From a virus (Duplodnaviria > Heunggongvirae > Uroviricota > Caudoviricetes), in IMG/VR virus record IMGVR_UViG_2537562189_000011, positions 1 to 11,657 of that record: a stretch of DNA of 11,657 bases; one strand, given 5' to 3'. This document shows, piece by piece, positions 1 through 11,657 of the stretch. Position numbers and translations under genes: made by a program. The notes beneath the pieces are model-generated. The model saw nothing but the letters and a program-made list of their open reading frames with translations. It ran no database searches and was not told the origin of the DNA. How positions within the stretch are numbered: position 1 is the stretch's first letter; every line of letters begins with the position of its first letter.

Positions 1-441
1 TCATTCATCAGCGCCATACATCCAGTTATTGCGGTTAGCGGCCCGTTCTTCCTCCTCACGGAATCCACCCGCAGCACGCTTGTTTTTTGTGGACGGATCA
101 AGCCATTTCGTTTTCTGGTTATGACACGCCTGGCACAATGGCTGATGATTCCACTCAGGCCAGAAGAGAACATCATTACCGCCATCGATTGGGATAATGT
201 GATCCACCACCACGGCGGGCGTGTATATTCCTTTTTCCAGGCAATGCGCACATAACGGGTTTTTACTCAGATACATGGCGCGGTATTTCTCCCACTGCCT
301 CGTATACCCTCGCTCCCTGCTGCTGCCTCTCCGGCTGTCCTGCTGCTGGCGTGCGCTGCGTCTGTGCTCCTCACACTTGCCGGACTTCACGCGCCTGTTG
401 CAGCCTGGTTCTGTACATCGTCTTAATGGTTGCCACGGCAT
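1..441 (-). CDS. HNH endonuclease (packaging-associated)
   Basis: 146-aa ORF, ATG at 441-439, stop at 3-1. Cys-x2-Cys ... VVDHIIP ... N ... Cys-x2-CHNQK zinc-finger HNH motif. Start overlaps the stop of the upstream connector gene by 1 nt (TGATG). Confidence 0.85.
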   Translation of the reverse strand: MPWQPLRRCTEPGCNRRVKSGKCEEHRRSARQQQDSRRGSSRERGYTRQWEKYRAMYLSKNPLCAHCLEKGIYTPAVVVDHIIPIDGGNDVLFWPEWNHQPLCQACHNQKTKWLDPSTKNKRAAGGFREEEERAANRNNWMYGADE

Positions 442-737
442 CAGTACACCCCCACATCACGGTAAGCCGTCCAGAGTGCGCCAATCGTCATGGGTACGTG
501 TGTTTTTGCGTTATCCGCGACAATCTGGCGATTCTCATACAGGTGAGCGATAAACATCATGCAGCCAATCTTTATGGCTGGCGTGAACTCCAGCCCGTCA
601 TCAAAGCGCCTGCCTATGTGTATCTGGCACGCCTCAAGCGATGCGGCAATGTATCCGCTGATTAACTGGTCTTCCTCGTCTCCATCGATACGGCAATGGA
701 GTTTCACTTCTTCCAGGGTGATAAGTTCTTCTGTCAT
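441..737 (-). CDS. Head-tail connector protein (gp6-like)
   Basis: 98-aa ORF; N-terminus MTEELITLEEVKLHCRIDGDEEDQLISGYIAASLEACQ matches the conserved start of gp6-like connector proteins. ATGA overlap with the upstream gene. Confidence 0.75.
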   Translation of the reverse strand: MTEELITLEEVKLHCRIDGDEEDQLISGYIAASLEACQIHIGRRFDDGLEFTPAIKIGCMMFIAHLYENRQIVADNAKTHVPMTIGALWTAYRDVGVY

Positions 738-1072
738 TTTTCCGCGCCCTCACGACAAAGAATTTCAAGGCGTGTCCTGGCGACATCCGGCAACGGCTGC
801 CCGATGATATTCAGTACACGCCCCGCCAGCGGCCCCGTACTGACCTTTATCCGGCTGGTGGCGTTGATGTCCTTCCGGTACCGTATCCAGATCCTTACGG
901 TACCAATCGCCAGCTCTGCGCCCGATGAAATGGCCTCCTTGCTGCTGATCATGTTCACGCTTGCCCAGAGTGTGTGACCGTCCTCCCACGTTTCGAGTAT
1001 TTCGCCCGTCATGGCTCTGGTCTGTTTCAGGGTCTGAATCGTTATCCTGTCACGCAGTCGCCCTATGTTCAT
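734..1072 (-). CDS. Head closure / head-tail adaptor protein
   Basis: About 112 aa from ATG 1072-1070, which overlaps the portal stop as ATGA; an alternative ATG at 1114 would give 126 aa. MNIGRLRDRITIQ ... VRIWIRYRKDI pattern typical of head closure proteins. Confidence 0.65.
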   Translation of the reverse strand: MNIGRLRDRITIQTLKQTRAMTGEILETWEDGHTLWASVNMISSKEAISSGAELAIGTVRIWIRYRKDINATSRIKVSTGPLAGRVLNIIGQPLPDVARTRLEILCREGAEK

Positions 1073-2277
1073 TCCGGTTTTTCTCCCTCGCTGATTTTTA
1101 CTTCCTGTTTCCATGCCTGACTGAACTCATCACCACCATCACGCGGTGACAGTCCTTCACGTTCGCGGGCTTCGTTCGGGCACATAACGCCGGATTTGAT
1201 GCCGCGCTCATAGGTGGCAAAGCGTTCGCCAGGTGTGGCCCGTAACAGGTCCGCGCTGTCAAACTCCACCTGATACCGGATACCAGGTACAGGCGAGGCC
1301 ACCAGCAGGGCGTTTTTTATCTGCTGCTCAAAGTTCGCCAGCCACGGGCGCATCGTCATGGTGAGAAATGCGCGGCTTGCCTCGCTGAAATTGCTGTAGG
1401 TGCTGTTGCTGTATTCCTGCAAAAAAATCGGCGAGACGTTGAACATTCGGGCGATGTCTTCAATGGTAAAGCGACGGGAGGCCAGCCATTCAGCATCCTG
1501 ATTACTCATGCCCAGCTGCTGATAGCTCATCCCCCCTTCAAGGATGGGCGTTTTTCCGGCGTTTCTGGCCCCTTTGTAGCGTTCCAGTGCGGCTAATGCC
1601 TGTTTGCCCTTCACGCCGTCCAGCCATTCGCCTGACGTGATAACCCCTGCCGCCATCATGCCATCACGCATCACGCTCGCGCCGTGGCGTTGTTGGGCCA
1701 GCCCAAGCCCCAGCGATTCGCGGCAGATGGTTACAGGTGAGCGCCCCATAAAGCCGTCATCCGTGGAGTAACGAAGGTGAAGTACTTCCCACGGTAAATA
1801 GTTGTGGGTGTTTCCGGTGTAGGCGTCAGTGATGCAATAGCGCCAGTTGTGTTCGCCTGTCTGCTCCACGTTCACCGACTGCGGCGGGTAAGGATGTAAA
1901 GCCGCCGGAAAACCATCACGCCCCCACTGAATAACCGCATAAGCATTACCGTTTAACAGGCAGTGGCGGATCATCATTCGCTTAAACTGGTAGGGGGTTT
2001 GCCATGCGTTCGGGCGCTCGTTGAGGATGTGATCGACCGGATGAGAATCAAGCCACTCGCGGGCCTCCTTCCCCTTCTCATTGCGTACCAGGTACAGGTA
2101 GCATGGCATAGTAGCCACCGCCTCAGAGATGACCGTAACGGCGTTCATGACGGCAGGCAGTGATTCCGCTGTCCCCGATGATACGTACTCACCCGCCCCC
2201 GTGTTCGATGTGCCAGCCAGCGCCATAAATTCATCAAGCGTCATGCTGCGCTGCTCTTTTTTCTTCTGAAAGGCCAC
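1069..2277 (-). CDS. Portal protein (HK97 family)
   Basis: 402-aa ORF in the size range and position of HK97-type portals. GTG start at 2277 preceded by GGGGG; alternative ATG at 2244 (MTLDEF...). Lies 3 nt after the protease stop. Confidence 0.8.
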   Translation of the reverse strand: MAFQKKKEQRSMTLDEFMALAGTSNTGAGEYVSSGTAESLPAVMNAVTVISEAVATMPCYLYLVRNEKGKEAREWLDSHPVDHILNERPNAWQTPYQFKRMMIRHCLLNGNAYAVIQWGRDGFPAALHPYPPQSVNVEQTGEHNWRYCITDAYTGNTHNYLPWEVLHLRYSTDDGFMGRSPVTICRESLGLGLAQQRHGASVMRDGMMAAGVITSGEWLDGVKGKQALAALERYKGARNAGKTPILEGGMSYQQLGMSNQDAEWLASRRFTIEDIARMFNVSPIFLQEYSNSTYSNFSEASRAFLTMTMRPWLANFEQQIKNALLVASPVPGIRYQVEFDSADLLRATPGERFATYERGIKSGVMCPNEAREREGLSPRDGGDEFSQAWKQEVKISEGEKPE

Positions 2278-2280
2278 ATA

Positions 2281-2853
2281 TCACACCCCCGCTAAATCCA
2301 CCCACCAGCGGCGATTATCCGCACGCGGCATTTTTTCGGGGTGCTGCTCATACAGGGAACGGCGGGCCAGCTCCACGCCGGAATCGGGGTAAGCCGGTAC
2401 CGATGTAACGGTAATTTCGTACAGTTCCGCCACCAGCACGGTGCGCACGCATGGATCTGTTGTGGTATCCCATACATCCTTACGGGAGCGAAAGCCAAAG
2501 CTCATGCCGGATATATCACCACGTTTAACCAGTTCGATAACGTCGCGCCCTGTACTGGTATCCGGTGGGGTCAGTTCAAAGCGTAACCCTGTTTCATCCT
2601 CTTCCAGTTTCAGCGTGCCGGAACGGGTGCGCCCCAGTAACATACTGTGGTCATGCTCATACAGGCCGCGAACGTCATTACCCGCCGCAAGCCATTCAGT
2701 AAACGCCCCCCGCTGGAATTTTTCGTAAAACTCACCCCATAACAGTTCTGAAAGCTTATCCCAGCGAACAACGTAGCCTGTAAGCGTGTTGCTGCCGCTG
2801 GTGGTGATTTCCGATGACCGGATTTCCATACTCTTCATAATTTTTTCACCCAT
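2281..2853 (-). CDS. Prohead maturation protease (HK97 / S78 family)
   Basis: 190-aa ORF between the capsid and portal genes, with sequence character of HK97-type prohead proteases. Three in-frame ATGs at 2853, 2838 and 2829; 2838 has the best spacing to a GGTGA Shine-Dalgarno. Confidence 0.8.
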   Translation of the reverse strand: MGEKIMKSMEIRSSEITTSGSNTLTGYVVRWDKLSELLWGEFYEKFQRGAFTEWLAAGNDVRGLYEHDHSMLLGRTRSGTLKLEEDETGLRFELTPPDTSTGRDVIELVKRGDISGMSFGFRSRKDVWDTTTDPCVRTVLVAELYEITVTSVPAYPDSGVELARRSLYEQHPEKMPRADNRRWWVDLAGV

Positions 2854-2882
2854 AAAACACTAAAGGGGCTTTTAAGCCCCTT
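2852..2882 (-). terminator. Intergenic hairpin with U-tract between capsid and protease genes (candidate attenuator)
   Basis: AAGGGGCT (2863-2870), loop TTTA, AGCCCCTT (2875-2882). On the minus strand the stem is followed by UAGUGUUUUAU. Confidence 0.45.
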
Positions 2883-2892
2883 CTGTATGCTG

Positions 2893-4050
2893 TTAATCGT
2901 CGTCCTGTGGCAGTTCCAGAATCTTGATCGCGTTCGAATCCACCACGCCACCGCCTAAATATTTCTGCGTGAAAATTTTGATGAAGCCCGGCTCTGTGAG
3001 GTTGTCCGGTCTGGTGCGAACACCTGTTTCGTGATCAACAATGTAGTAACCGCGTTTGAAGTCACCCAGGGCAATAACGTTATCAGGCATAAACTCCAGA
3101 TATTCGACCGGAAGGCCCAGCAACGTATCAGGATCACCCGCCTGTAAACGGTCACGCCAGATGTAATCACCGTTCGCGTTCTTCACCTTCTGGAGTTTTG
3201 CCGCCGTCGTGGAGTTAACCACCCAGACCGCGTTTTTGCGGTATTTTTTACGTAATGCAAATTTCAGGTCGATCAGCGGGTCCGCAGATGTCCACGCCAG
3301 AGATTCGGAAGGTTTAATTACCTGCAACGTACCAAAATCACGCTCTTTGTCGTTCTTCTCTGCACGGGGTACGGATAAAAAGCCTTTTGCTTTTTTGTCA
3401 CCGTCGCCCACAACCAGATCGCTTTCTTCGGTTTCCGTGAAGGTGTCGCCAATCTCGCCCGTCAGCCATGAAAGGATGTCCACATCGGAAAAATCCACGA
3501 TTTCCTGTGTGGTGCGCGGGTACGCATAGACCGGATACAGCTTAATGCTCACCTCGTTAATCTGCGGGGTGCTGGTCTGTTCGCGTGCCTTACCCTCTTC
3601 ACCGTGGTTAACGGTCGCACCGCCAGCGGAAACAAGCTGCTTAAACTCGTTGCTGCTGATTTTTTTCACGGTACAGATGCGGCGCATGGTGGACTCATCC
3701 GCCAGCATTCGCATGATTTCGGTGTTCAGTTCGGGGATAACGGTATAACCACCATCAGCGGGAACGCCTGTACTTAATGCGCGGGTTTCACCTGTCAGAA
3801 TGTAGTTGCGGAGTTCTGCGGGGTCAGTGGTCTGACTGCTTTTACCTGGCTTGCTGCGCTCTTCGTCTGCAATGGCTTCAAGGCGGGAAATGTCTTTATC
3901 GAGGGATTCAGCTTTAGCGCGTAATTCGTCAAATTTTGCGCCCTCTGCATCGTTAAGGCTGCGGTTTTCTTTTTCCGCGTTCTCCAGCATGTCGCGCATC
4001 TGATTTTTAATGGCGGTTTTCTGCTGGCGTAATTCGATTATTCTCGGCAT
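2893..4050 (-). CDS. Major capsid protein (HK97 fold) with N-terminal scaffolding-like delta domain
   Basis: 385-aa ORF, ATG at 4050. The N-terminal ~100 aa is charged and coiled-coil-like (ELRQQKTAIKNQMRDMLENAEKENRSLNDAEGAKFDELRAKAESLDKDISRLEAIADEE), as in the delta domain of HK97-type capsid proteins; no separate scaffold gene is seen. Confidence 0.85.
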   Translation of the reverse strand: MPRIIELRQQKTAIKNQMRDMLENAEKENRSLNDAEGAKFDELRAKAESLDKDISRLEAIADEERSKPGKSSQTTDPAELRNYILTGETRALSTGVPADGGYTVIPELNTEIMRMLADESTMRRICTVKKISSNEFKQLVSAGGATVNHGEEGKAREQTSTPQINEVSIKLYPVYAYPRTTQEIVDFSDVDILSWLTGEIGDTFTETEESDLVVGDGDKKAKGFLSVPRAEKNDKERDFGTLQVIKPSESLAWTSADPLIDLKFALRKKYRKNAVWVVNSTTAAKLQKVKNANGDYIWRDRLQAGDPDTLLGLPVEYLEFMPDNVIALGDFKRGYYIVDHETGVRTRPDNLTEPGFIKIFTQKYLGGGVVDSNAIKILELPQDDD

Positions 4051-4140
4051 AAAAAAAGTACCTGGGTTAAGTAAGGAACTCCAGGACGCGGCAAAAACTC
4101 AACCGTTTTTCATAAGGAAATCAGCAATCGCACCGATCGT

Positions 4141-4246
4141 TTTCCCGCCTGGTAATGAATATTGGTGAGCACATTAACAGGCGGGAAAGTGGCCCCAGCG
4201 TCCTGGCACCACTGGCGAGAATAATCATGATTCAGGGCGGGTAAAA
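4141..4246. promoter_or_regulatory. Inverted and direct repeats of TTTCCCGCCTG upstream of the capsid operon (candidate regulator binding sites)
   Basis: TTTCCCGCCTG at 4141-4151 is the exact reverse complement of CAGGCGGGAAA at 4178-4188; an inner TAATG/CATTA pair (4153-4157 / 4172-4176) extends the palindrome. A related CAGGGCGGGTAAAA lies at 4233-4246. All are 90-200 bp upstream of the capsid start. Confidence 0.4.
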
Positions 4247-4291
4247 TATGCCGATCCGGTCAATGAACAACGTGGAACGACCACGAACAAA

Positions 4292-4330
4292 TAATTTACA
4301 AAAATTACAAAAAGCCGGATTTCTCCGGCT
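4292..4330 (-). terminator. Rho-independent terminator separating the replication/regulatory operon from the capsid operon
   Basis: Stem AGCCGGA (4313-4319), loop TTTC, TCCGGCT (4324-4330). On the minus strand it is followed by UUUUGUAAUUUUUGU, and it sits immediately 3' of the stop at 4337. Confidence 0.6.
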
Positions 4331-4336
4331 GTTTGA

Positions 4337-5029
4337 TTAGCTGTCCTGGTAATTGCGCCATATTTCATCACCAGCACCATCTATACCCATTTCGGCATAA
4401 GTGCGATCGACTGCCTTTTTCAGGTCTCCGAAATTATCCGGCGGCTCCGGTGCCCTCTGTGCCTTCCTTGAACATTCCAGCCGTCGCATCGTGATGTGAT
4501 GCCGTTCCTTGTCTGTCTCCACCAGCTGCATGACTTCACCCCATCGCGCCGCCGCCCTCCGGTAAAAGCCTTTCGCCTCCAGTTCCTCCGCTATGCGGTC
4601 ATGTACCATCGTCACCCCCTCAGAACGAAATATCATCACCGTAAGGGTCATCGCTCCCGCTGGTGGCTGATTACCCTGTGTGCCTGTGGTTTTGCGTCTG
4701 TTCCCGCCAGGAAGTGCCGCACGGGCACTGATTACGCTGTCTGCAATAACCTGATAACCCTGCCGCGTTTCCCCATTCTGTCCGGTCCACTGGCTGACCT
4801 GCATCGTGCCGGATACGCTGGCAACGTCGCCTTTTTGATGTTTAGCCAGGAAGTCGGCCTGCTTACCAAATGCGATGACCGATAGCCATAACGTCGCCTG
4901 CCCATCCTGCGCCTGACTACATGGCAGCGATACCGCCATACGCGCCAGCGTCATCGGTGTACCCTTGCTGGTCTGTTTTACCTGCTGGTCGTCCACCAGC
5001 CGCCCGTAAGCCGCTATCTGTGCTGTCAT
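4337..5029 (-). CDS. Two-domain protein: N-terminal SSB-like OB fold, Gly/Pro/Gln linker, C-terminal PerC-like small-regulator domain
   Basis: 230-aa ORF, ATG at 5029 overlapping the upstream stop (ATGA). Residues 1-105 follow the SSB OB-fold pattern (GRL..D..V ... TLW.SVI.FGK.A.F..K..KGD ... WT...G..R). The C-terminal ~90 aa carries AEELEAKGFYRRAAARW, recalled from PerC-type regulators. An internal ATG at 4609 has a strong GAGGGGG Shine-Dalgarno 5 nt upstream. Confidence 0.55.
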   Translation of the reverse strand: MTAQIAAYGRLVDDQQVKQTSKGTPMTLARMAVSLPCSQAQDGQATLWLSVIAFGKQADFLAKHQKGDVASVSGTMQVSQWTGQNGETRQGYQVIADSVISARAALPGGNRRKTTGTQGNQPPAGAMTLTVMIFRSEGVTMVHDRIAEELEAKGFYRRAAARWGEVMQLVETDKERHHITMRRLECSRKAQRAPEPPDNFGDLKKAVDRTYAEMGIDGAGDEIWRNYQDS

Positions 5030-5277
5030 GCCGTCTGCTCTCCGGTTTTAACGTTGATGGTTGTTACCTGTTCCGCTTCGGCAATCTCCCGTTCTGTCAA
5101 CGTGGCAAAGTTTGCCGCTGCTGTGGTCATGAATGCGCTTATCAGTTCGGGATGCTCCTTCGCGTATCCTTCCCCCGCGTGGCGGTCTATCGTCCTGATT
5201 GCCACCTTTAAGGCCAGTTCAGCCATATCTAACGCCTTATATTTCGGCTCTGTTCTGTCTCTGCGTTTTTGGGTCAT
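5026..5277 (-). CDS. Hypothetical protein (about 83 aa), translationally coupled to the SSB-like gene
   Basis: The ORF track extends to a TTG at 5334 (102 aa), but that extension is encoded by the iteron repeats. ATG at 5277 (MTQKRRDRTEP...) has a GAGAGG Shine-Dalgarno; a further ATG lies at 5226. No recognised domain. Confidence 0.45.
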   Translation of the reverse strand: MTQKRRDRTEPKYKALDMAELALKVAIRTIDRHAGEGYAKEHPELISAFMTTAAANFATLTEREIAEAEQVTTINVKTGEQTA

Positions 5278-5288
5278 TTCTCGCAACC

Positions 5289-5479
5289 TCTCACTTTTTC
5301 GCCTCACTTTTTCAAGCGTCTCACTTCGTCGCAATTGGGATTTTTGGTTTTTCTATGTGTGTGTTTCATAAGTATTTTTTTACCCCTCACTTTTGAGGAT
5401 GTATACAGGTAGAAAAGTGAGGGAGAGCAGGCTAATTTTGGCCCTCTTTCTATCCACCTCGCTTTTGCTCCTCACTTTT
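5289..5479. repeat. Iteron cluster (CTCACTTTT) flanking an AT-rich segment; candidate replication origin
   Basis: Perfect copies at 5290-5298, 5304-5312, 5387-5395 and 5471-5479, one inverted copy (AAAAGTGAG, 5413-5421), and degenerate copies at 5320-5328 (CTCACTTCG) and 5459-5467 (CTCGCTTTT). AT-rich core at 5331-5384. Lies immediately 3' of the helicase gene. Confidence 0.6.
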
Positions 5480-6459
5480 ATAGCGGCGCTACATCATCCC
5501 CATCGATACGAATAACCCCATCTTTTTCCAGCTTGTACAGCCAGCGCCGGAAGTTTTTCATTTCATACCCCAGCTTTTTCATGTCATCACGTAACAGCGG
5601 GATCGTGCACTTGTCGCCGTTCTGTGTGCGTGAACGGATGCACCCCCATAGCGCGGTATGGTTTTCCGTCTTGTTCCCTGCCTCCTCGATGCGCTCCAGT
5701 TCAACGGGAGGGCGCGGCTTATCCACCACCACCAGCGACGTGATTAATTCACCGTCAGCGTCGGTAAAAAGCTCCACCACGCGTAAGTCATATGCGGCTT
5801 CTTTGAGTTCCTCCGCGTCCTTCATTTTGGTGCATGAGATAACCAGCGCTTCGCCTCCTGCGTCCTCCCTGCGTATCCGGTATTCAGCATCCAGCGAAGC
5901 ACGAAATGCACTGGAACCGCGCGCGCCTTTCGCTCATCCTTGCCGGAATGGTGAACCACCAGCACCGTGGCCCCTGTGCGTCGATTCAGTTCGTCACAAC
6001 CACGGATAAACGCCCCCATATCACGGGAATCATTTCATCATTCCCACCAAGGCAACGCGCCAGCGTATCCAGAATAATCATGCGTACAGGTTTACCCGTT
6101 TCCCGCTCCACCTGACGGGCAGCGATAACCATTTCATCAACATCAAGCGGGGCAGCCGGAAAGATGGGGCGGTTTACCAGATACAGATTTTTCACCTGCT
6201 CATCGTGCACAACCTCCCAGGCTTTTACACGACGCGGAACACCTATACCGCCTTCACCAACCACATAGAGAACCGCACCATGTGCAACCCTGCGGCCTCC
6301 CCACTGGCGACCAGTGGCAACATGGCACGCCCACGATCCGGCAAGGAATGATTTATAGGACCCGCTAGCCCCGTATATGCTGCATAGCGATACCGCCGGA
6401 ATAATCCCCTTAACCACGTAATCCAGTTGCGTGTCGTATCCGGTAGATCCAACGCTCAT
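5478..6459 (-). pseudogene. Replication helicase (AAA_25 / RepA-like) disrupted by two frameshifts
   Basis: Three consecutive minus-strand ORFs in three frames together form one helicase-like protein: Walker A GASGSYKS and Walker B MIILDTL (6459-5986), GATVLVVHHSGKD (6019-5822), C-terminal domain (5825-5478). Reading continuity needs about +1 nt near 6033-6035 and -2 nt in the CCGCGCGCGCC tract at 5917-5927, which restores ...HHSGKDERKARGSSAFRASLD.... Confidence 0.7.
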
Positions 6460-6875
6460 CGGTAGCGTGGTTTTTCGCTGGTGGTTTTTTCTTCCGCCGG
6501 CTCTTTCCCGCGCACCCGTTCCAGGTATTCGCGCCAGTTCTCCCGCATATGGCTGTGCATCCCTTCGGGGTAATAATTCGCATCAGTTACACCCGCCGCC
6601 GCCAGTTTGTGCGCAATGGCATTAATATTTGATGGCCTGATGTGGCCTGCCTTGTACAGCCGGACACAATAGCGCCCCTCGTCGATGATTCTCAGGTCTG
6701 CCAGTTCATCCAGTTGATCATCAGCCAGCACAACGGGAGGCACATTATCGCCAGCCAGTCGCCCGTCCTGTTCCTGCCACTGTTTCGCATGTGCCCAGGC
6801 ATCACTACCCGCAAAAATAATGACTTCGGTCATCTTGTCGTAAGGCTGTTTTTTTAAGTTCGGTGCGCTTTTCAT
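6456..6875 (-). CDS. Hypothetical protein (139 aa), coupled upstream partner of the helicase gene
   Basis: ATG at 6875 with AGGGG Shine-Dalgarno; ATGA overlaps with both the upstream gene and the helicase start. No confident domain assignment. Confidence 0.55.
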   Translation of the reverse strand: MKSAPNLKKQPYDKMTEVIIFAGSDAWAHAKQWQEQDGRLAGDNVPPVVLADDQLDELADLRIIDEGRYCVRLYKAGHIRPSNINAIAHKLAAAGVTDANYYPEGMHSHMRENWREYLERVRGKEPAEEKTTSEKPRYR

Positions 6876-7171
6876 TTCTTGCCCCTGAATCCGTTAATCA
6901 TGGTTTTCAGCTTCTGGATGTTTGCACGTGCCCTGGCGTTGCTGGTGGGCACGTTATGCGGCGCGGTCTGTACCAGAGAAAAATCACGCCGGAACTGATA
7001 AACAGGCATCACGCAATCATATTCGTAACCTTCACGGCGGTAAGTTACGCACCGTCCCGCCACGCCCTTAATCATTACCGTGCCGCCGTACTGGTCGCGG
7101 TAAATATCACCGCGCGTAAATTTAGGGTGAGTGTTGCCACTGGCAGTTAAGCCAGAATATTTAAGTTTCAT
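6872..7171 (-). CDS. Hypothetical protein (99 aa), first gene of the replication operon
   Basis: ATG at 7171 with a GGAGA upstream; ATGA overlap with the next gene; preceded by a 230-bp AT-rich intergenic region. No recognised domain. Confidence 0.5.
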   Translation of the reverse strand: MKLKYSGLTASGNTHPKFTRGDIYRDQYGGTVMIKGVAGRCVTYRREGYEYDCVMPVYQFRRDFSLVQTAPHNVPTSNARARANIQKLKTMINGFRGKK

Positions 7172-7403
7172 TATTTTTATTCTCCGGTGTGCTGTTCGTT
7201 ATATCTGTCGTGCAATGTCTCTATTTCCTGCAACACATTTATTACAGGCTCAAGAAGCGTTATTAATGATGTAATAATCCGCGTTTTTTTTGCTATTACG
7301 TTCATTATCGCCAAAGGATTCAAGGCACATCCGCAATATTTCCATCATATTTTCACTGTGAGAAAGTGCAAGAAATACGCGATCTGTTGTTTCGTGGTAA
7401 ATA

Positions 7404-7637
7404 TCACGCATGGCTTACATCCTCAGGAAATTTTCTTCTGTAACGAGCCTCTGCCACATATTCCGCATAATCGGCGGCGATATTCAGTACATCAAGCCCC
7501 GTTGATTTATATTCTCTCGTGGAAAGTAAGAAAAAAGCCGCTCTAATAAGTTCTGGCATTGACGAAAGCGCATCAGCCGCATCATCAGGAACGCCGGAAA
7601 ATTCCTGTTTCAGGGAATTAAAACGATCATCACGCAT
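7404..7637 (-). CDS. Hypothetical protein (77 aa); possibly the C-terminal half of a gene split at a homopolymer tract
   Basis: ATG at 7637 sits immediately 3' of a G9 run (C9 on the plus strand, 7640-7648). One extra G would fuse it in frame to the upstream ORF. Confidence 0.4.
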   Translation of the reverse strand: MRDDRFNSLKQEFSGVPDDAADALSSMPELIRAAFFLLSTREYKSTGLDVLNIAADYAEYVAEARYRRKFPEDVSHA

Positions 7638-7870
7638 AACCCCCCCCCATTTTCACAATCAGCAATCAGGATAGCTTTGGCCTCATTCAGCGCCGTATCA
7701 GCACTAAATTGCATGACAGCCAGTGAGTGAGGAACGAAAGCACCGGCATATTCTGTTTCGCTGGTGGCGTGCTTATGTGCCCTGTCCGCGATAACAGAAA
7801 TATCAATCAGCGCGTGCATCAGCGTTTTGATGGCTTCGGCGGCTGCGTCCGGTGTGGTTTTATTGTGCAT
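7610..7870 (-). CDS. Hypothetical protein (86 aa); possibly the N-terminal half of a gene split at a homopolymer tract
   Basis: ATG at 7870; the reading frame runs through the G9 tract (ENGGG) and stops 27 nt later. Confidence 0.4.
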   Translation of the reverse strand: MHNKTTPDAAAEAIKTLMHALIDISVIADRAHKHATSETEYAGAFVPHSLAVMQFSADTALNEAKAILIADCENGGGLCVMIVLIP

Positions 7871-8072
7871 AAAGCATCCCCTGAATATTCGTGTTAATCA
7901 TTCCGGCACGTTTTGTGATTTCCTGTAATGATTCCCTTGTGGCGACAATTGCTTCATCTGGTAAGTGGTAATTACACACCACGCGACCTTTATCCACATT
8001 GACCAGTAGCTGCCCTGTGAATTTCTCACGAAACTGAATGCGGTTAAGGTCAGTAAGTGACAGATTAATCAT
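7860..8072 (-). CDS. Hypothetical small protein (70 aa)
   Basis: ATG at 8072 preceded by a strong AGGAGG Shine-Dalgarno at 6-nt spacing; the ORF track's longer version starts at a GTG at 8114. Start overlaps the stop of the upstream gene. Confidence 0.5.
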   Translation of the reverse strand: MINLSLTDLNRIQFREKFTGQLLVNVDKGRVVCNYHLPDEAIVATRESLQEITKRAGMINTNIQGMLYAQ

Positions 8073-8262
8073 AGCGCACCTCCTGACGAATACGGGCGGC
8101 AAATACAGCAACACAACCTGACGGGCAACGGCTATGCGCTTCGCGTTCCGTCCAGGCGGTTACGTGGATGATTTGAGATTCTCCGGCACTCAGTGCCAGA
8201 AAACGCCACACAAAGGCCGTTTGTGTGTGTACAAGGTGTGGGGTATGATTTACGGCAACCAT
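8065..8262 (-). CDS. Hypothetical small protein (65 aa)
   Basis: ATG at 8262 preceded by GAGGAG at 5-nt spacing; the ORF track's longer version starts at a GTG at 8361. No recognised domain. Confidence 0.5.
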   Translation of the reverse strand: MVAVNHTPHLVHTQTAFVWRFLALSAGESQIIHVTAWTEREAHSRCPSGCVAVFAARIRQEVRYD

Positions 8263-8351
8263 AACGGCTCCTCGTTTACGTTGTTGGTTAGAAGCCCTGC
8301 GAGTGGTAATGACACTTGCGGGGCTTTGCTTTTTTAAGTGCTCTTGTGTTA

Positions 8352-8397
8352 AGGTGGTCACCTAACAATAGAAAGGCTAATTCAATAGGTGACCACT
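8352..8397. promoter_or_regulatory. Operator-like inverted repeat pair (GGTGGTCACC / GGTGACCAC) in the divergent intergenic region
   Basis: GGTGGTCACC at 8353-8362 and its near reverse complement GGTGACCAC at 8388-8396, centres 35 bp apart, between the minus-strand gene starting at 8262 and the plus-strand gene starting at 8457. Confidence 0.45.
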
Positions 8398-8456
8398 TGT
8401 CAACAATCAAACGCGATAAAAGCCCTAAAGGGGACGGGCAATCCCCACAATTCAGA

Positions 8457-8588
8457 ATGCGAATTTCTCCAGAGCTAAAAGAGCAATTCGATAAAGAAGC
8501 ACAGAGCGACGGCATAAGCCTAGCCAACTGGCTTAAAGAGTTGGGGCGCACTGAACTAAAGCGGCGCGGTATAGAACCCAAAGGATAA
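8457..8588 (+). CDS. Ribbon-helix-helix (Arc/CopG-like) DNA-binding protein, copy 1 (43 aa)
   Basis: MRISPELKEQFDKEAQSDGISLANWLKELGRTELKRRG fits the strand-helix-helix pattern of ribbon-helix-helix regulators (Arc/CopG-like). Nested in the 90-aa ORF-track ORF 8316-8588; Shine-Dalgarno is weak. Confidence 0.45.
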   Translation: MRISPELKEQFDKEAQSDGISLANWLKELGRTELKRRGIEPKG

Positions 8589-8590
8589 AA

Positions 8591-8637
8591 ACTATCAGCG
8601 CCGTGGTGTGAGGTACTACGGCGCATTGCTTTACAGG
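8591..8637 (+). repeat. 47-bp conserved hairpin element, copy 1
   Basis: ACTATCAGCGCCGTGGTGTGAGGTACTACGGCGCATTGCTTTACAGG, 46 of 47 identical to 9332-9378. Contains a GCGCCGT / ACGGCGC stem (extendable to 11 bp with G-U pairs). Begins 2 nt after the stop codon and ends 8 nt before the next ATG. Confidence 0.7.
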
Positions 8638-8645
8638 GCAGTACC

Positions 8646-8873
8646 ATGACCAACAACACACTATCACCAATACAAGACACGCAAACGCAAGATGATGAAA
8701 TCATCCGGCAAAGGCAGTCAGAAGCCTGCGCCAGACTTGAGGAAGAACTAACCAGAACAAAAATACCACCACCAGCGCCGCGCTTAGTGCCACCAGAAAA
8801 ATTTGCCCTTGAAGATTTTGTCGATAAATACCCACGGCGGCTTAAATCCGGCAAAAACCGACCGCCAGGATGA
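8646..8873 (+). CDS. Hypothetical small protein (75 aa), MTNN... N-terminus
   Basis: ATG 8 nt after the 47-bp element. The first ~50 nt are homologous to the start of the ORF at 9387. No recognised domain. Confidence 0.4.
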   Translation: MTNNTLSPIQDTQTQDDEIIRQRQSEACARLEEELTRTKIPPPAPRLVPPEKFALEDFVDKYPRRLKSGKNRPPG

Positions 8874-8892
8874 GTGCACAAAACCGAACTAT

Positions 8893-8930
8893 GAAACGGA
8901 TTATTCCGTTTCCGGGGCGTTTGTGTGTGT
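8893..8930 (+). terminator. Candidate terminator hairpin after the first plus-strand gene pair
   Basis: GAAACGGA (8893-8900), loop TTAT, TCCGTTTC (8905-8912), followed by CGGGGCGTTTGTGTGTGT. The T-tract is interrupted, so this is weak. A second hairpin ACGCCCCG / CGGGGCGT (8993-9026) is followed by TTGTTGTTTTGGG. Confidence 0.3.
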
Positions 8931-9036
8931 ATAAAGAGTAAGCTATGCTCTTTTATAGCCATAATCGTTACCTCAATTAATGGTTTGGTTAGACGCCCCG
9001 TATGTGTTCCCATCACTGCGGGGCGTTGTTGTTTTG

Positions 9037-9129
9037 GGTGTATTTCACCTTCATTTTTAAATCTACATTCAGGTGAAATACACCGCAAGACTTTTTTTAT
9101 CTTTTTTTTTGCGTATACTGAAATACACC
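9037..9129 (+). promoter_or_regulatory. Promoter/operator region of the second ribbon-helix-helix gene: GGTG-N5-CACC inverted repeats plus a TATACT -10
   Basis: GGTGTATTTCACC at 9037-9049 and its reverse complement GGTGAAATACACC at 9072-9084 (centres 35 bp apart); a third half-site TGAAATACACC at 9119-9129 overlaps a TATACT at 9114-9119; T-rich stretch at 9091-9110; AGGAG Shine-Dalgarno at 9137-9141. Confidence 0.5.
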
Positions 9130-9149
9130 GATTATCAGGAGAACCAGAA

Positions 9150-9329
9150 ATGGCAACAGGTGCAAAGAACGCAAAATCACAAATGACAACGGTCAGAATC
9201 CCGCATGAGGTAATGACCGATATTGAGCAACTTAAAGAACCTGGCGAAAGTACCGCCGGATTTCTAGTTACGGCAGCAAAAGGCGAGATCAAACGCCGCC
9301 AGCGCCGCAAGGCCAAAGAATCAGAATAA
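9150..9329 (+). CDS. Ribbon-helix-helix (Arc/CopG-like) DNA-binding protein, copy 2 (59 aa)
   Basis: ATG at 9150 with CAGGAG Shine-Dalgarno at 8-nt spacing. TTVRIPHEVMTDIEQLKEPGESTAGFLVTAAKGEIKRR fits the ribbon-helix-helix pattern. Nested in the 134-aa ORF-track ORF 8925-9329. Confidence 0.55.
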   Translation: MATGAKNAKSQMTTVRIPHEVMTDIEQLKEPGESTAGFLVTAAKGEIKRRQRRKAKESE

Positions 9330-9331
9330 TT

Positions 9332-9378
9332 ACTATCAGCGCCGTGGCGTGAGGTACTACGGCGCATTGCTTTACAGG
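9332..9378 (+). repeat. 47-bp conserved hairpin element, copy 2
   Basis: ACTATCAGCGCCGTGGCGTGAGGTACTACGGCGCATTGCTTTACAGG; same placement as copy 1 (2 nt after the stop, 8 nt before the next ATG). Confidence 0.7.
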
Positions 9379-9386
9379 TACACACA

Positions 9387-9536
9387 ATGACCAATAAAGA
9401 ATCAACCAATACACCATCGCAAAAAACGAACAGAGAGCACGAAAATATGGCGCTCGAGCATGAATCAGAAAGATTCGCTCCATGCGCTTTTGTCCTTGAT
9501 GAGTTTCTAAAAAATATTCACGTTCTGAACGGATGA
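9387..9536 (+). CDS. Hypothetical small protein (49 aa), MTNK... N-terminus; not in the ORF track
   Basis: ATG at 9387 to TGA at 9534-9536, translated by hand: MTNKESTNTPSQKTNREHENMALEHESERFAPCAFVLDEFLKNIHVLNG. Position and first codons parallel the ORF at 8646. Confidence 0.3.
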   Translation: MTNKESTNTPSQKTNREHENMALEHESERFAPCAFVLDEFLKNIHVLNG

Positions 9537-9657
9537 AAATGGCAGCACAATACGGCCCCAACAAGCAAGGTAATTGCCCACCAGCCTGATCACGGTTATC
9601 ATGTTCGGGCTTATGATTGTTGACACATACGGCGCAGCGGGTTAATTGTTCAGAAAG

Positions 9658-9684
9658 GCGGTTCCATATCGGGACCGCTTTTTT
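9658..9684 (+). terminator. Rho-independent terminator closing the plus-strand regulatory cassette
   Basis: Stem GCGGTTCC (9658-9665), loop ATATC, GGGACCGC (9671-9678; 8 bp including one G-U), followed by TTTTTT (9679-9684). Confidence 0.6.
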
Positions 9685-9864
9685 ATGCCTGAAAATACCC
9701 TATAGCATGGCTTTTCAGATTCACCAGGGCGAACGAATCCCCGCCCCTGTACGGGCGTATATTTCATCATGGTTATACCTCAGTATTATGGCGTTTATTC
9801 CCGATACCGAGATCCCGGTATCGGTCAATAATGGATTGGTGGTGGCTGTGTGCCGCCAGTCTTT

Positions 9865-10053
9865 TTAGTGAACTGCCTTGCAGCTATCCTTCCAGGCCAA
9901 AACCTCAGATAAAGACCAGCCAACAGAACGCCCGCCAAGTTTACGACGTGATGGGAATTGTCCGGCCTTTTCCAGGCGGTAGCGGCATGAGCGGCTAAGG
10001 CCTGTTAGCTTTTCGCATTCTTTTTCACGTATAAACCGATCAGTGCTTAACAC
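9865..10053 (-). CDS. alpA: AlpA-family phage regulatory protein (small HTH regulator)
   Basis: 62 aa; RFIREKECEKLTGLSRSCRYRLEKAGQFPSRRKLGGRSVGWSLSEVLAWK matches the AlpA helix-turn-helix signature. GTG start at 10053 with AAGGGGG Shine-Dalgarno 5 nt upstream. Confidence 0.85.
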   Translation of the reverse strand: MLSTDRFIREKECEKLTGLSRSCRYRLEKAGQFPSRRKLGGRSVGWSLSEVLAWKDSCKAVH

Positions 10054-10427
10054 TATTGCCCCCTTTCGTTTCTTAAAGAGTTATTTCGTGTTCTATTGCG
10101 TTGGGATGTGTCTGATTGTGTCAGGATGATTCAGAGTTGGCAAATGTTGGTGTCGCATGGTTTACAGAAAGAGGAATAATCAGGATAAAATCATTTAAAT
10201 TCATGTTAATACAAAGGCATAAAATCTTGTTTTATGCTTTTTTTCGCACGCTTTAACGCGTAATTCACTAATGTATAAAAAACCAGCTGATCATTAAAAA
10301 TCAGTAACTTATAAATCTGTATTCTTTTTGGCCTCTTGTTCGTGATTGTGTCACGTTGTTGCACATTGTTTCACGTTGTATCTGTGCACTTATCCAGTAT
10401 GCGCATACTGAAAAAACACGAGAAAAA

Positions 10428-11657
10428 TTATTTTATTCTGGTTACTGGTAGCGTGGTTACGTTTTCATGTGTTCCCGCCAGTATCTCCAACCGCTCCACC
10501 CACATATCAAGCGCATTGCGTTTCGCATCAATATAGCGGGAATGGTTGTACACGCGTTGCATTCCTAGCATCTGGTGGCCTGTAAGCTGCTCCACGACGT
10601 GAGGATCAACGCCTAAATCGTTCAGCATGGTTGTAAAGGTGCGCCGGATGTCATGCAGTGACCAGTGAGGGTGTTTAAGCCTCCTGTGCACCAATCTGCC
10701 GTACTGCGATACGCTGGTTTCCTGTTTCACTTCCCCCAGCAATAAGCCCGTGTGCCTGTTCTGCTCCACCAGCTGCGTGACGAACGGCAGTATCGCTTCC
10801 GGTATGGGCCGGAATATGGCTACCTTCGTTTTGCTGTGCTCCTTCGGAACGGTCCAGAGCATTTCGGTAAAATCCCACTCGCCGATCTCCGATAACCTCA
10901 GTTCTACTGTCCGGCATCCGAAAACAATCAGGAGGCGGATTAGTGCGACGTAGTAAGGGGAAAATATTTTTTTGTCCAGTGCCTGCAATAATTCGCCAAG
11001 TTCTTTGTTACTTAAGACACGCTCACTTATATCCGGTTTTTTCCCAACGTCCGCCACACTCATATCATCAAGAACGTTGCTGATTGCATAGCGCCGCTTC
11101 CTGCAGAACTTAAGCGCCTGCTTGCATGTCTGTAGCAGGAACCCGGCGGAAACAGGGGCTTTCTTTGCCACCCGATCAAAACAGGCCAGCCAGTGCCGTA
11201 GCTCGCATTTATCCAGCGGCATAGGGCCAATGTGCTGTATTACGTGATTATTTAGCCGCTTTTTCAGTGGGTCATAATCCACACGGTTTTCCTTTGCGTA
11301 CGACTCAAGCCAGTAGGTGAGCGCATCGCCAACCGTTACCGGCTTTAACGCTTCCTGTACGGTGTAATTCATTTCATGACGTGGATTTTTCCCCTCTGCC
11401 AGCCATGCGCGACACTGGGCGGCTTTTTCCCTGGCTGATTTCAGGCTCAGATCAGGATAATTTCCCAGCTTAATGCGTTCCGGTGGTGCCCCCCTTCCCG
11501 TTCCGGCCCTGTAAGTGAAATACCAGGTTAAAAGGCCACTGGTTGAATGCCTGACGCTCAGGTTTCCACCGTCATTAAGAAAGGCTGTTTTTTGGGCGGG
11601 TGTGCCGTTGATTTTCCTCAGCTGGGTATCGCTCAGTTTGTTAAGTGCTCTGCTCAT
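10428..11657 (-). CDS. int: Tyrosine integrase, P4-type (site-specific recombinase)
   Basis: 409-aa ORF, ATG exactly at the window end (11657-11655), TAA at 10430-10428. N-terminal arm-binding-like domain (GLLTWYFTYRAGTGRG..RIKLGNYPDLSLKSAREKA) and a C-terminal catalytic domain with HxxR and a terminal Tyr region as expected for tyrosine recombinases. Confidence 0.9.
   Translation of the reverse strand: MSRALNKLSDTQLRKINGTPAQKTAFLNDGGNLSVRHSTSGLLTWYFTYRAGTGRGAPPERIKLGNYPDLSLKSAREKAAQCRAWLAEGKNPRHEMNYTVQEALKPVTVGDALTYWLESYAKENRVDYDPLKKRLNNHVIQHIGPMPLDKCELRHWLACFDRVAKKAPVSAGFLLQTCKQALKFCRKRRYAISNVLDDMSVADVGKKPDISERVLSNKELGELLQALDKKIFSPYYVALIRLLIVFGCRTVELRLSEIGEWDFTEMLWTVPKEHSKTKVAIFRPIPEAILPFVTQLVEQNRHTGLLLGEVKQETSVSQYGRLVHRRLKHPHWSLHDIRRTFTTMLNDLGVDPHVVEQLTGHQMLGMQRVYNHSRYIDAKRNALDMWVERLEILAGTHENVTTLPVTRIK

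What the first reader, a model, noticed from the sequence alone, without database searches (positions are those of the whole stretch)
4337..5029. SSB-like OB-fold fused in frame to a PerC-like regulator domain, with a strong internal ribosome-binding site
The 230-aa ORF begins as a recognisable SSB-type OB fold but replaces the usual acidic tail with a Gly/Pro/Gln linker and a ~90-aa domain carrying AEELEAKGFYRRAAARW. An in-frame ATG at 4609 has a GAGGGGG Shine-Dalgarno 5 nt upstream, so the regulator domain could also be made as a separate 90-aa protein. A nested or dual-product gene of this type is unusual. The PerC-like assignment is from memory of the family motif, not a search.
Basis: partly seen in the sequence, partly recalled or inferred. 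Interest (0 to 1): 0.55.

Follow-up and report, generated by a model that had tools for sequence, protein, structure and literature searches.

The report
Frameshift error joins two satellite genes
The apparent SSB–PerC fusion protein comes from one missing G in an error-rich stretch of a draft E. coli assembly; the same element sequenced elsewhere has two ordinary, separate genes, ssb and perC, so nothing new is here.

Summary
The 230-aa ORF exists on the minus strand (5029→4337). Pfam confirms both halves: SSB OB-fold at residues 5-99 and a complete PerC domain at 141-229, starting at the internal Met (ATG 4609) behind a GAGGGGG Shine-Dalgarno.

The SSB acidic tail has not been replaced. It is still encoded one frame over (…DDPYGDDISF-TGA, 4652-4620). 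One G is missing at 4654 (GGGAGGCGAT→GGGAGCGAT). That shifts ssb past its own stop, across the 10-nt spacer and into perC.

None of 722 complete E. coli genomes (823 loci) has this deletion; every locus inspected is annotated as ssb (136 aa) plus perC (90 aa).

The window comes from the draft contig AEZO02000023.1 (E. coli 1.2264). Three independent assemblies of the same element at the same roxA site are identical to each other. Two of them also match the source contig's 7.9-kb host flank at 100%. Against them the window shows 12 single-base indels and 10 mismatches, all inside the element. These break repA into four ORFs and clip the portal start.

Verdict: the fusion is a consensus error, or at most a private lesion, in an ordinary capsid-forming PICI satellite. 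It is not a real feature, and interest is very low.

The parts
4620..5029 (-). ssb gene of the satellite. It is 411 nt (136 aa) in relatives and 410 nt here because one G is missing. The OB-fold is encoded by about 5017-4733.
   Evidence: Pfam SSB at residues 5-99, E=2.7e-15. Relatives are annotated 'single-stranded DNA-binding protein', 136 aa. With the G restored, the protein is 100% identical to WP_000126700.1.
4654..4654 (-). Site of the single-base deletion. Relatives read GGGAGGCGATGAC and the window reads GGGAGCGATGAC. This is what creates the 230-aa ORF.
   Evidence: Alignment A1 and indel lists. None of 722 complete E. coli genomes has the deleted version.
4620..4652 (-). Out-of-frame relic of the SSB acidic C-terminal tip (DDPYGDDISF) and the original ssb stop codon TGA (4622-4620).
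   Evidence: Three-frame translation. The same codons are in frame in L001-L004 and L016-L018.
4615..4621 (-). GAGGGGG Shine-Dalgarno of perC. It overlaps the ssb stop and lies 5 nt before the ATG.
   Evidence: Read directly. It is invariant in all five aligned loci.
4337..4609 (-). perC-family regulator gene, 90 aa plus a TAA stop. It is an independent gene.
   Evidence: Pfam PerC covers model positions 1-89 of 90, E=3.9e-43. Relatives are annotated 'PerC family transcriptional regulator', 273 nt. The protein is 100% identical to WP_000233304.1.
4303..4330 (-). Intrinsic-terminator-like hairpin (AGCCGGAGAAATCCGGCT) followed by a T-tract, directly after perC.
   Evidence: Consensus scan. This is a pattern match only.
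5026..5277 (-). Small upstream ORF (83 aa in relatives) whose stop overlaps the ssb start (ATGA). It is probably in the same transcription unit.
   Evidence: tblastn, 92.5% identity to the L005 homologue; gene calls.
5478..6875 (-). repA-family helicase gene (466 aa in relatives), split here into four ORFs by three single-A deletions at about 6490, 6035 and 5932.
   Evidence: tblastn shows the frame changes. Restoring the three A's gives an open 466-aa frame.
1..11657 (-). Most of a capsid-forming PICI satellite: int, alpA, icd-like, DUF4222, repA, ssb, perC, HK97-type capsid, protease, portal, head closure, head-tail connector and HNH. It is integrated next to roxA. The source contig ends 195 nt beyond window position 1, before terS and terL.
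   Evidence: The cfPICI core gene set is taken from PMC10085698.

Best explanation
The window holds two ordinary, adjacent, co-transcribed genes of a capsid-forming PICI satellite. The first is ssb: an OB-fold, a short Gly/Pro/Gln linker and the acidic tip …DDPYGDDISF. The second is perC: 90 aa with its own GAGGGGG ribosome-binding site, 10 nt after the ssb stop.

In this deposited draft sequence (E. coli 1.2264, AEZO02000023.1) one G of a GG pair in the ssb linker is missing. perC lies in the +1 frame relative to ssb, and no stop intervenes. The shifted reading therefore misses the ssb stop, crosses the spacer and runs into perC, giving a 230-aa chimeric ORF.

The missing base is most likely a consensus or assembly error. 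It is one of 22 discrepancies (12 one-base indels and 10 mismatches) confined to this repeated mobile element near the contig end.

Shown here: the deletion, its uniqueness, the intact two-gene arrangement elsewhere, and the local excess of indels.

Inferred: that the cause is sequencing error rather than a real private mutation; that SSB serves the satellite's RepA-driven replication; and that PerC acts as a small transcription regulator.
For: - The acidic tail and TGA stop are present in the -1 frame, immediately before the perC SD and ATG.
- All aligned relatives have one extra G and separate genes of 136 aa and 90 aa.
- The 66-nt stretch with the deletion has no exact match in 722 complete genomes (823 loci); the best hit is 98.5%, which equals one gap.
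- The exact 230-aa protein occurs on a single contig in the 153-billion-gene index. No cluster representative among the top 120 hits covers more than 56% of it.
- Three independent assemblies (GCA_037352345.1, Logan SRR28385201, Logan SRR387477) carry the element at the same site. They are identical to each other over 11,230 nt.
- Two of these assemblies (L016, L017) are also 100.000% identical to the source contig's 7,877-nt host flank. The window nevertheless differs from all three by 10 mismatches and 12 single-nt indels, all within contig positions 2,457-10,617.
- The indels include A7→A6 three times, T7→T6, T6→T5, and a cluster at 4057-4063 (C4→C3, +T, T8→T7).
- Restoring the missing bases gives open, full-length RepA and SSB with no other lesions.
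Against: - No raw reads were available, so a genuine private mutation in strain 1.2264 cannot be formally excluded.
- The ssb deletion is in a GG dinucleotide, not a long homopolymer, and many A7, T7, A9 and G9 runs in the window are correct.
- The T6 variant at 9514 also occurs in two other assemblies, so not every discrepancy need be an error.
- The sequencing platform of the draft could not be verified.
Confidence: 0.9

Rival explanations
1. The deletion is a real, private mutation in strain 1.2264. Under this reading the satellite's replication module is decaying, with three frameshifts in repA and one in ssb. The cell would then make a tail-less SSB fused to PerC, plus free PerC from the internal start.
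For: - Host-flank genes are intact and free of indels, so the assembly is not uniformly poor.
- Four of the frameshifts fall in repA and ssb, as expected if later hits are neutral after the first inactivation.
- The module does decay naturally elsewhere: strain MFDS1006657 keeps only remnants of ssb and perC at the same site.
Against: - The ratio of 12 indels to 10 substitutions is far from the roughly 1:10 expected of spontaneous mutation in E. coli (from my own knowledge, not checked here).
- All 22 differences lie in the element and none in 9 kb of adjacent chromosome. Three isolates sampled independently show zero differences among themselves.
- There are no nonsense mutations or larger deletions, and every broken frame reopens when single bases are restored.
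- Intergenic homopolymer miscounts cluster at 4057-4063.
- The fusion protein is absent from every other assembly indexed.
Confidence: 0.08
2. An evolved SSB–PerC fusion or nested dual-product gene, in which the long and short products both have selected functions.
For: The ORF is open, and the internal SD and ATG are strong.
Against: - The architecture occurs once. All 823 homologous loci in complete genomes lack the deletion.
- No two-domain homologue appears in the protein search.
- The junction peptide is the frameshifted reading of a conserved acidic tail plus an intergenic spacer.
Confidence: 0.01
3. Programmed -1 ribosomal frameshifting that yields both a normal tailed SSB and a read-through fusion.
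For: The acidic tail is in the -1 frame relative to the OB-fold in this sequence.
Against: - There is no X XXY YYZ slippery heptamer at the shift site (C GGG AGC).
- The two-frame arrangement is not conserved, because relatives encode the tail in frame.
Confidence: 0.005

Closest known systems
ssb + perC gene pair of E. coli PICI and cf-PICI satellites (for example WP_000126700.1 and WP_000233304.1 in strain PE164; PerC-like genes of EcCIEDL933 and EcCICFT073)
   Same: Once the missing G is restored, the products are 100% identical to WP_000126700.1 (SSB) and WP_000233304.1 (PerC). Gene order, the 10-nt spacer and the SD are the same. PerC-family regulators are described as common cargo of Gram-negative PICIs (PMC11773190, PMC6092414).
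   Different: Only the single missing G at 4654 in this draft sequence.
Capsid-forming PICI (cfPICI), prototype EcCIEDL933
   Same: The window carries int, alpA, a replication helicase, an HK97-type capsid, a prohead protease, a portal, a head-closure/adaptor protein, a head-tail connector and HNH in the canonical order. The related element at this site spans about 14-15 kb between roxA and phoQ, in line with the 14-kb median size for cfPICI in PMC10085698.
   Different: terS and terL fall off the contig end here. Several genes appear frameshifted in this assembly only.
Bacterial SSB (E. coli Ssb type)
   Same: An N-terminal OB-fold (PF00436), a Gly/Pro/Gln-rich disordered linker, and an acidic-hydrophobic C-terminal tip D-D-I-[S/P]-F.
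   Different: It is short (136 aa) and scores just under the TIGR00621 cutoff (53.0 bits against 53.95). It is a mobile-element paralogue, not the chromosomal ssb.
EPEC PerC / EHEC Pch regulators
   Same: A full-length PF06069 match and the same ~90-aa size.
   Different: Its effect on LEE1 is unknown. Published PICI PerC homologues vary: some activate, EcCIEDL933 and EcCICFT073 showed no effect, and EcCIMP1_025 represses (PMC11773190). There is a weak sub-threshold resemblance to the ANR family (E=3e-4).

Membership tests
SSB family (PF00436 / bacterial Ssb) | OB-fold domain scoring above the Pfam gathering threshold | tested here: met
   56.7 bits against a cutoff of 26, residues 5-99.
SSB family (PF00436 / bacterial Ssb) | Acidic C-terminal tip (…D-D-I-P/S-F) in frame at the end of the protein | tested here: not met
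   It is not in frame in the 230-aa ORF as deposited.
SSB family (PF00436 / bacterial Ssb) | ssDNA binding and oligomerisation | not testable with these tools
   This needs biochemistry.
PerC family (PF06069) | Full-length match to the PerC profile | tested here: met
   146.1 bits against a cutoff of 22.6, model positions 1-89 of 90, for the 90-aa product starting at ATG 4609.
PerC family (PF06069) | Stand-alone small protein (~90 aa) with its own translation start | tested here: met
   GAGGGGG SD 5 nt before the ATG. Separate 90-aa genes are called or annotated in relatives.
PerC family (PF06069) | Regulation of LEE1/ler or another target promoter | not testable with these tools
   The literature shows variable activity among PICI homologues.
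cfPICI satellite (SatelliteFinder definition, PMC10085698) | Core set of int, regulator (alpA), primase/replicase, capsid, protease, portal, head-tail adaptor, head-tail connector and HNH | tested here: met
   All are found in the window by tblastn or Pfam. repA is frameshifted in this assembly only.
cfPICI satellite (SatelliteFinder definition, PMC10085698) | terS and terL present; no tail or holin genes | tested here: inconclusive
   The contig ends before terS and terL. Related elements have P27-type terS and terL. The element at the same site in MFDS1006657 then runs straight into phoQ with no tail or lysis genes.
Natural two-domain SSB–PerC architecture | Recurrence of the fused architecture in independent genomes | tested here: not met
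   No such architecture was found at 823 loci. The exact protein sits on a single contig. The protein search found no hit covering both halves. Caveat: only cluster representatives are shown.
Programmed ribosomal frameshift site | Slippery heptamer plus conservation of the two-frame layout | tested here: not met
   There is no X XXY YYZ motif at the site. Relatives are in frame.

The most novel reading that the evidence does not exclude
The single-G deletion is genuine in strain 1.2264. The cell would then express an SSB that has lost its partner-binding acidic tip and is covalently tethered to a PerC regulator, alongside free PerC from the internal start. Such a protein could poison SSB tetramers or bring PerC to ssDNA during satellite replication.
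Probability: 0.07. Interest if true: 0.2.

Novelty: not a real feature. Interest (0 to 1): 0.04.

Why it matters
Biologically it matters little. ssb and perC are well-known, separately encoded cargo of E. coli phage satellites.

The practical value is as a warning. A one-base consensus error in an old draft assembly produced a deposited 'fusion' protein, EIH22577.1, named 'transcriptional activator PerC'. It looks like a new domain architecture. It also sits in a single 90%-identity cluster with both SSB and PerC sequences and probably bridges the two families.

Scans for unusual fusions should first check whether the junction peptide is an out-of-frame reading of a conserved tail plus an intergenic spacer.

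Tried and rejected
- Programmed frameshifting: rejected, because there is no slippery site and the layout is not conserved.
- Uniform homopolymer truncation across the assembly: rejected, because many A7, T7, A9 and G9 runs are correct and the host flank has no indels. The errors are local to the repeated element near the contig end.
- Natural decay of the element: considered seriously after the clean host flank appeared. It was then made unlikely by three identical independent copies of the element in the same chromosomal context.
- Exact-pattern scans for the deleted allele: 0 hits in GTDB representative genomes. The one metagenome hit, VFSW01026419.1, is an unrelated chance 22-mer match.
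- Literature search for the accession, assembly or SRA run, to learn the sequencing platform: nothing useful beyond the strain name and serotype.
- Rfam scan of the window: no hits.
The 409-aa version encoded in the window worked.
- Structure prediction: not run, because the Pfam matches and the comparative data were already decisive.

Full report
**Observation.** The ORF is real in this sequence. It lies on the minus strand and runs from ATG at 5029 to TAA at 4339-4337, giving 230 aa. Pfam places an SSB OB-fold at residues 5-99 (PF00436, 56.7 bits, cutoff 26). It places a complete PerC domain at residues 141-229 (PF06069, model positions 1-89 of 90, 142.7 bits). The internal ATG (4609-4607) is Met141, so it is exactly position 1 of the PerC model. 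GAGGGGG (4621-4615) lies 5 nt upstream.

Translating all three minus-strand frames shows that the SSB acidic tail has not been replaced. In the -1 frame, directly upstream of the perC ribosome-binding site, the DNA reads AGC GAT GAC CCT TAC GGT GAT GAT ATT TCG TTC TGA. That is S-D-D-P-Y-G-D-D-I-S-F-stop (4655-4620), a canonical SSB C-terminal tip with its own stop codon. The peptide 'AMTLTVMIFRSEGVT' in the fusion is the frameshifted reading of that tail plus the 10-nt intergenic spacer.

**Comparison with relatives.** A megablast of the region against 5,426 complete E. coli genomes found 1,502 genomes with a match. All those listed are annotated 'single-stranded DNA-binding protein | PerC family transcriptional regulator'. 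In the loci I fetched, ssb is 411 nt (136 aa), followed by a 10-nt spacer, followed by perC. perC is 273 nt (90 aa) in five of these loci and a shorter 249-nt allele in strain 10.

Alignment shows that the window lacks one G: relatives have GGGAGGCGATGAC and the window has GGGAGCGATGAC. perC lies in the +1 frame relative to ssb, and no stop intervenes. The deletion therefore carries the ssb reading frame straight into perC.

A 66-nt query spanning the deletion matched 823 places in 722 genomes. None was exact; the best was 98.5%, which equals one gap. Pattern scans for the deleted allele found nothing in GTDB representatives. The only metagenome hit was an unrelated chance match.

The exact 230-aa protein is on a single contig in the gene-position index. 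In the protein search no listed hit covers more than 56% of the query. The listed hits are all SSBs of 126-149 aa, apart from one 130-aa PerC. One caveat applies: only cluster representatives are shown, and the query itself is hidden in a cluster with a 109-aa representative.

**Source.** The window is positions 196-11,852 of AEZO02000023.1 (GCA_000194415.2), E. coli 1.2264, an O76:H- STEC. The protein is deposited as EIH22577.1, 'transcriptional activator PerC'. The contig begins inside the element.

**Error or real mutation?** The window has other frameshifts relative to relatives:
- repA (466 aa elsewhere) is split into four ORFs by three single-A deletions.
- The first codons of the portal gene are shifted by an A7→A6 change.
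- Two small ORFs are also shifted.

I first weighed real decay of the element, for three reasons. The 7.85-kb host flank (roxA, pepT, potABCD) has intact genes and no indels against the nearest complete genome. Homopolymers are not systematically shortened. A related element at the same site in strain MFDS1006657 has only remnants of ssb and perC.

The decisive result came from looking up the window's integrase. Three independent assemblies carry the same element at the same roxA site: GCA_037352345.1, Logan SRR28385201 and Logan SRR387477. The findings were:
- The three assemblies are identical to each other over 11,230 nt.
- Two of them (L016 and L017) are 100.000% identical to the source contig's 7,877-nt host flank, with 0 mismatches and 0 gaps.
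- The window differs from all three by the same 10 mismatches and 12 single-base indels (10 deletions, 2 insertions).
- All 22 differences lie between contig positions 2,457 and 10,617.
- The indels include A7→A6 three times, T7→T6, T6→T5, and a tight intergenic cluster at 4057-4063 (C4→C3, +T, T8→T7).
- In the three other assemblies the gene calls give RepA at 466 aa, SSB at 136 aa (ending …PPAGGDDPYGDDISF) and PerC at 90 aa. I read the SSB and PerC sequences directly in L018.

Restoring the missing bases in the window reopens repA completely. It also gives an SSB identical to WP_000126700.1 and a PerC identical to WP_000233304.1.

Several features fit local consensus error and do not fit natural divergence. 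The indel-to-substitution ratio is 12:10. Nothing changes in 9 kb of adjacent chromosome. There is no variation among three other isolates. There are no nonsense mutations or larger lesions. A repeated mobile element at a contig end is a plausible place for such errors. My recollection is that these 2011-12 drafts were partly 454-based, but I could not verify the platform. Without reads, a genuine private mutation keeps a probability of roughly 8%.

**What is really there and how it works.** The window is most of a capsid-forming PICI satellite. Its genes in order are int, alpA, icd-like, DUF4222, repA helicase, a small ORF, ssb, perC, HK97-type capsid, prohead protease, portal, head closure, head-tail connector and HNH. 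terS and terL lie beyond the contig end (cfPICI definition from PMC10085698).

ssb and perC sit at the end of the early or replication block. The start of ssb overlaps the stop of the upstream ORF (ATGA). perC follows 10 nt after ssb with its own SD. A terminator-like hairpin with a T-tract follows perC at 4330-4303 (pattern match only).

By inference from the families, the SSB coats ssDNA during RepA-driven satellite replication and uses its acidic tip to recruit host partners. PerC is a small transcription regulator. PerC-family genes are reported as common PICI cargo with variable effects on LEE1: some activate, EcCIEDL933 and EcCICFT073 have no effect, and EcCIMP1_025 represses (PMC11773190, PMC6092414).

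**Verdict.** The fusion is not a real feature. Underneath it are already-known, separately encoded genes.

Noticed in passing
window 2262-10422 (contig AEZO02000023.1 positions 2457-10617): There are 12 single-base indels and 10 mismatches relative to three mutually identical independent assemblies of the same element, and none in the adjacent 9 kb of chromosome. The consequences are that repA is split into four ORFs (deletions at ~6490, 6035, 5932), the portal 5' end is shifted (2262, A7→A6) and two small ORFs are shifted (7294, 9514). Any other oddity reported from this window should be checked against L016-L018 first.
   Followed up: yes
protein cluster of EIH22577.1: The 90%-identity cluster that holds the chimeric 230-aa protein has 617 members. 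It includes both 136-aa SSBs and 90-aa PerC regulators under a 109-aa partial SSB representative, so the chimera probably bridges the two unrelated families. It is a database artefact caused by this one frameshift.
   Followed up: partly
window 8582-8656 and 9323-9397; also 8215-8264 and 8915-8964: Direct repeats of 75 nt (85% identical) and 50 nt (70% identical) lie about 700-741 nt apart. They mark a tandem duplication of a small module (a hypothetical ORF plus a YlcI/YnfO or DUF3950-like ORF) between alpA and the icd-like gene. The long 373-aa minus-strand ORF at 8288-9409 across this region looks spurious. Relatives annotate small plus-strand genes there.
   Followed up: partly
window 7640-7648: A G9 tract on the gene strand sits immediately upstream of the ATG of a 77-aa ORF, inside the end of the preceding 86-aa ORF. 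Its length is polymorphic among relatives: G8 in L001 and L019, G9 in L005. It could modulate translation or coupling, or simply be a slippage hotspot.
   Followed up: no
L014 (NZ_CP073589.1, strain MFDS1006657) 7880-8041: A related cf-PICI sits at the same roxA-phoQ site. It has a different replication gene (a primase-family protein instead of RepA) and only short annotated remnants of ssb and perC. This shows modular exchange and natural loss of this gene pair.
   Followed up: partly
window 4340-4609 (PerC protein): There is a weak, sub-threshold match to the ANR (AraC negative regulator) family NF033650 (E=3.3e-4, 20.4 bits against a cutoff of 32). This echoes the remark in PMC11773190 that a PICI PerC-like protein behaves as a repressor and resembles ANR proteins.
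   Followed up: no
L012 (JAWVHI010000001.1): Another assembly carrying a related element has portal, capsid and integrase genes, and host genes such as pntB, all fragmented into several ORFs. This is evidently an indel-rich assembly and a second example of frameshift noise in this element family's public records.
   Followed up: no
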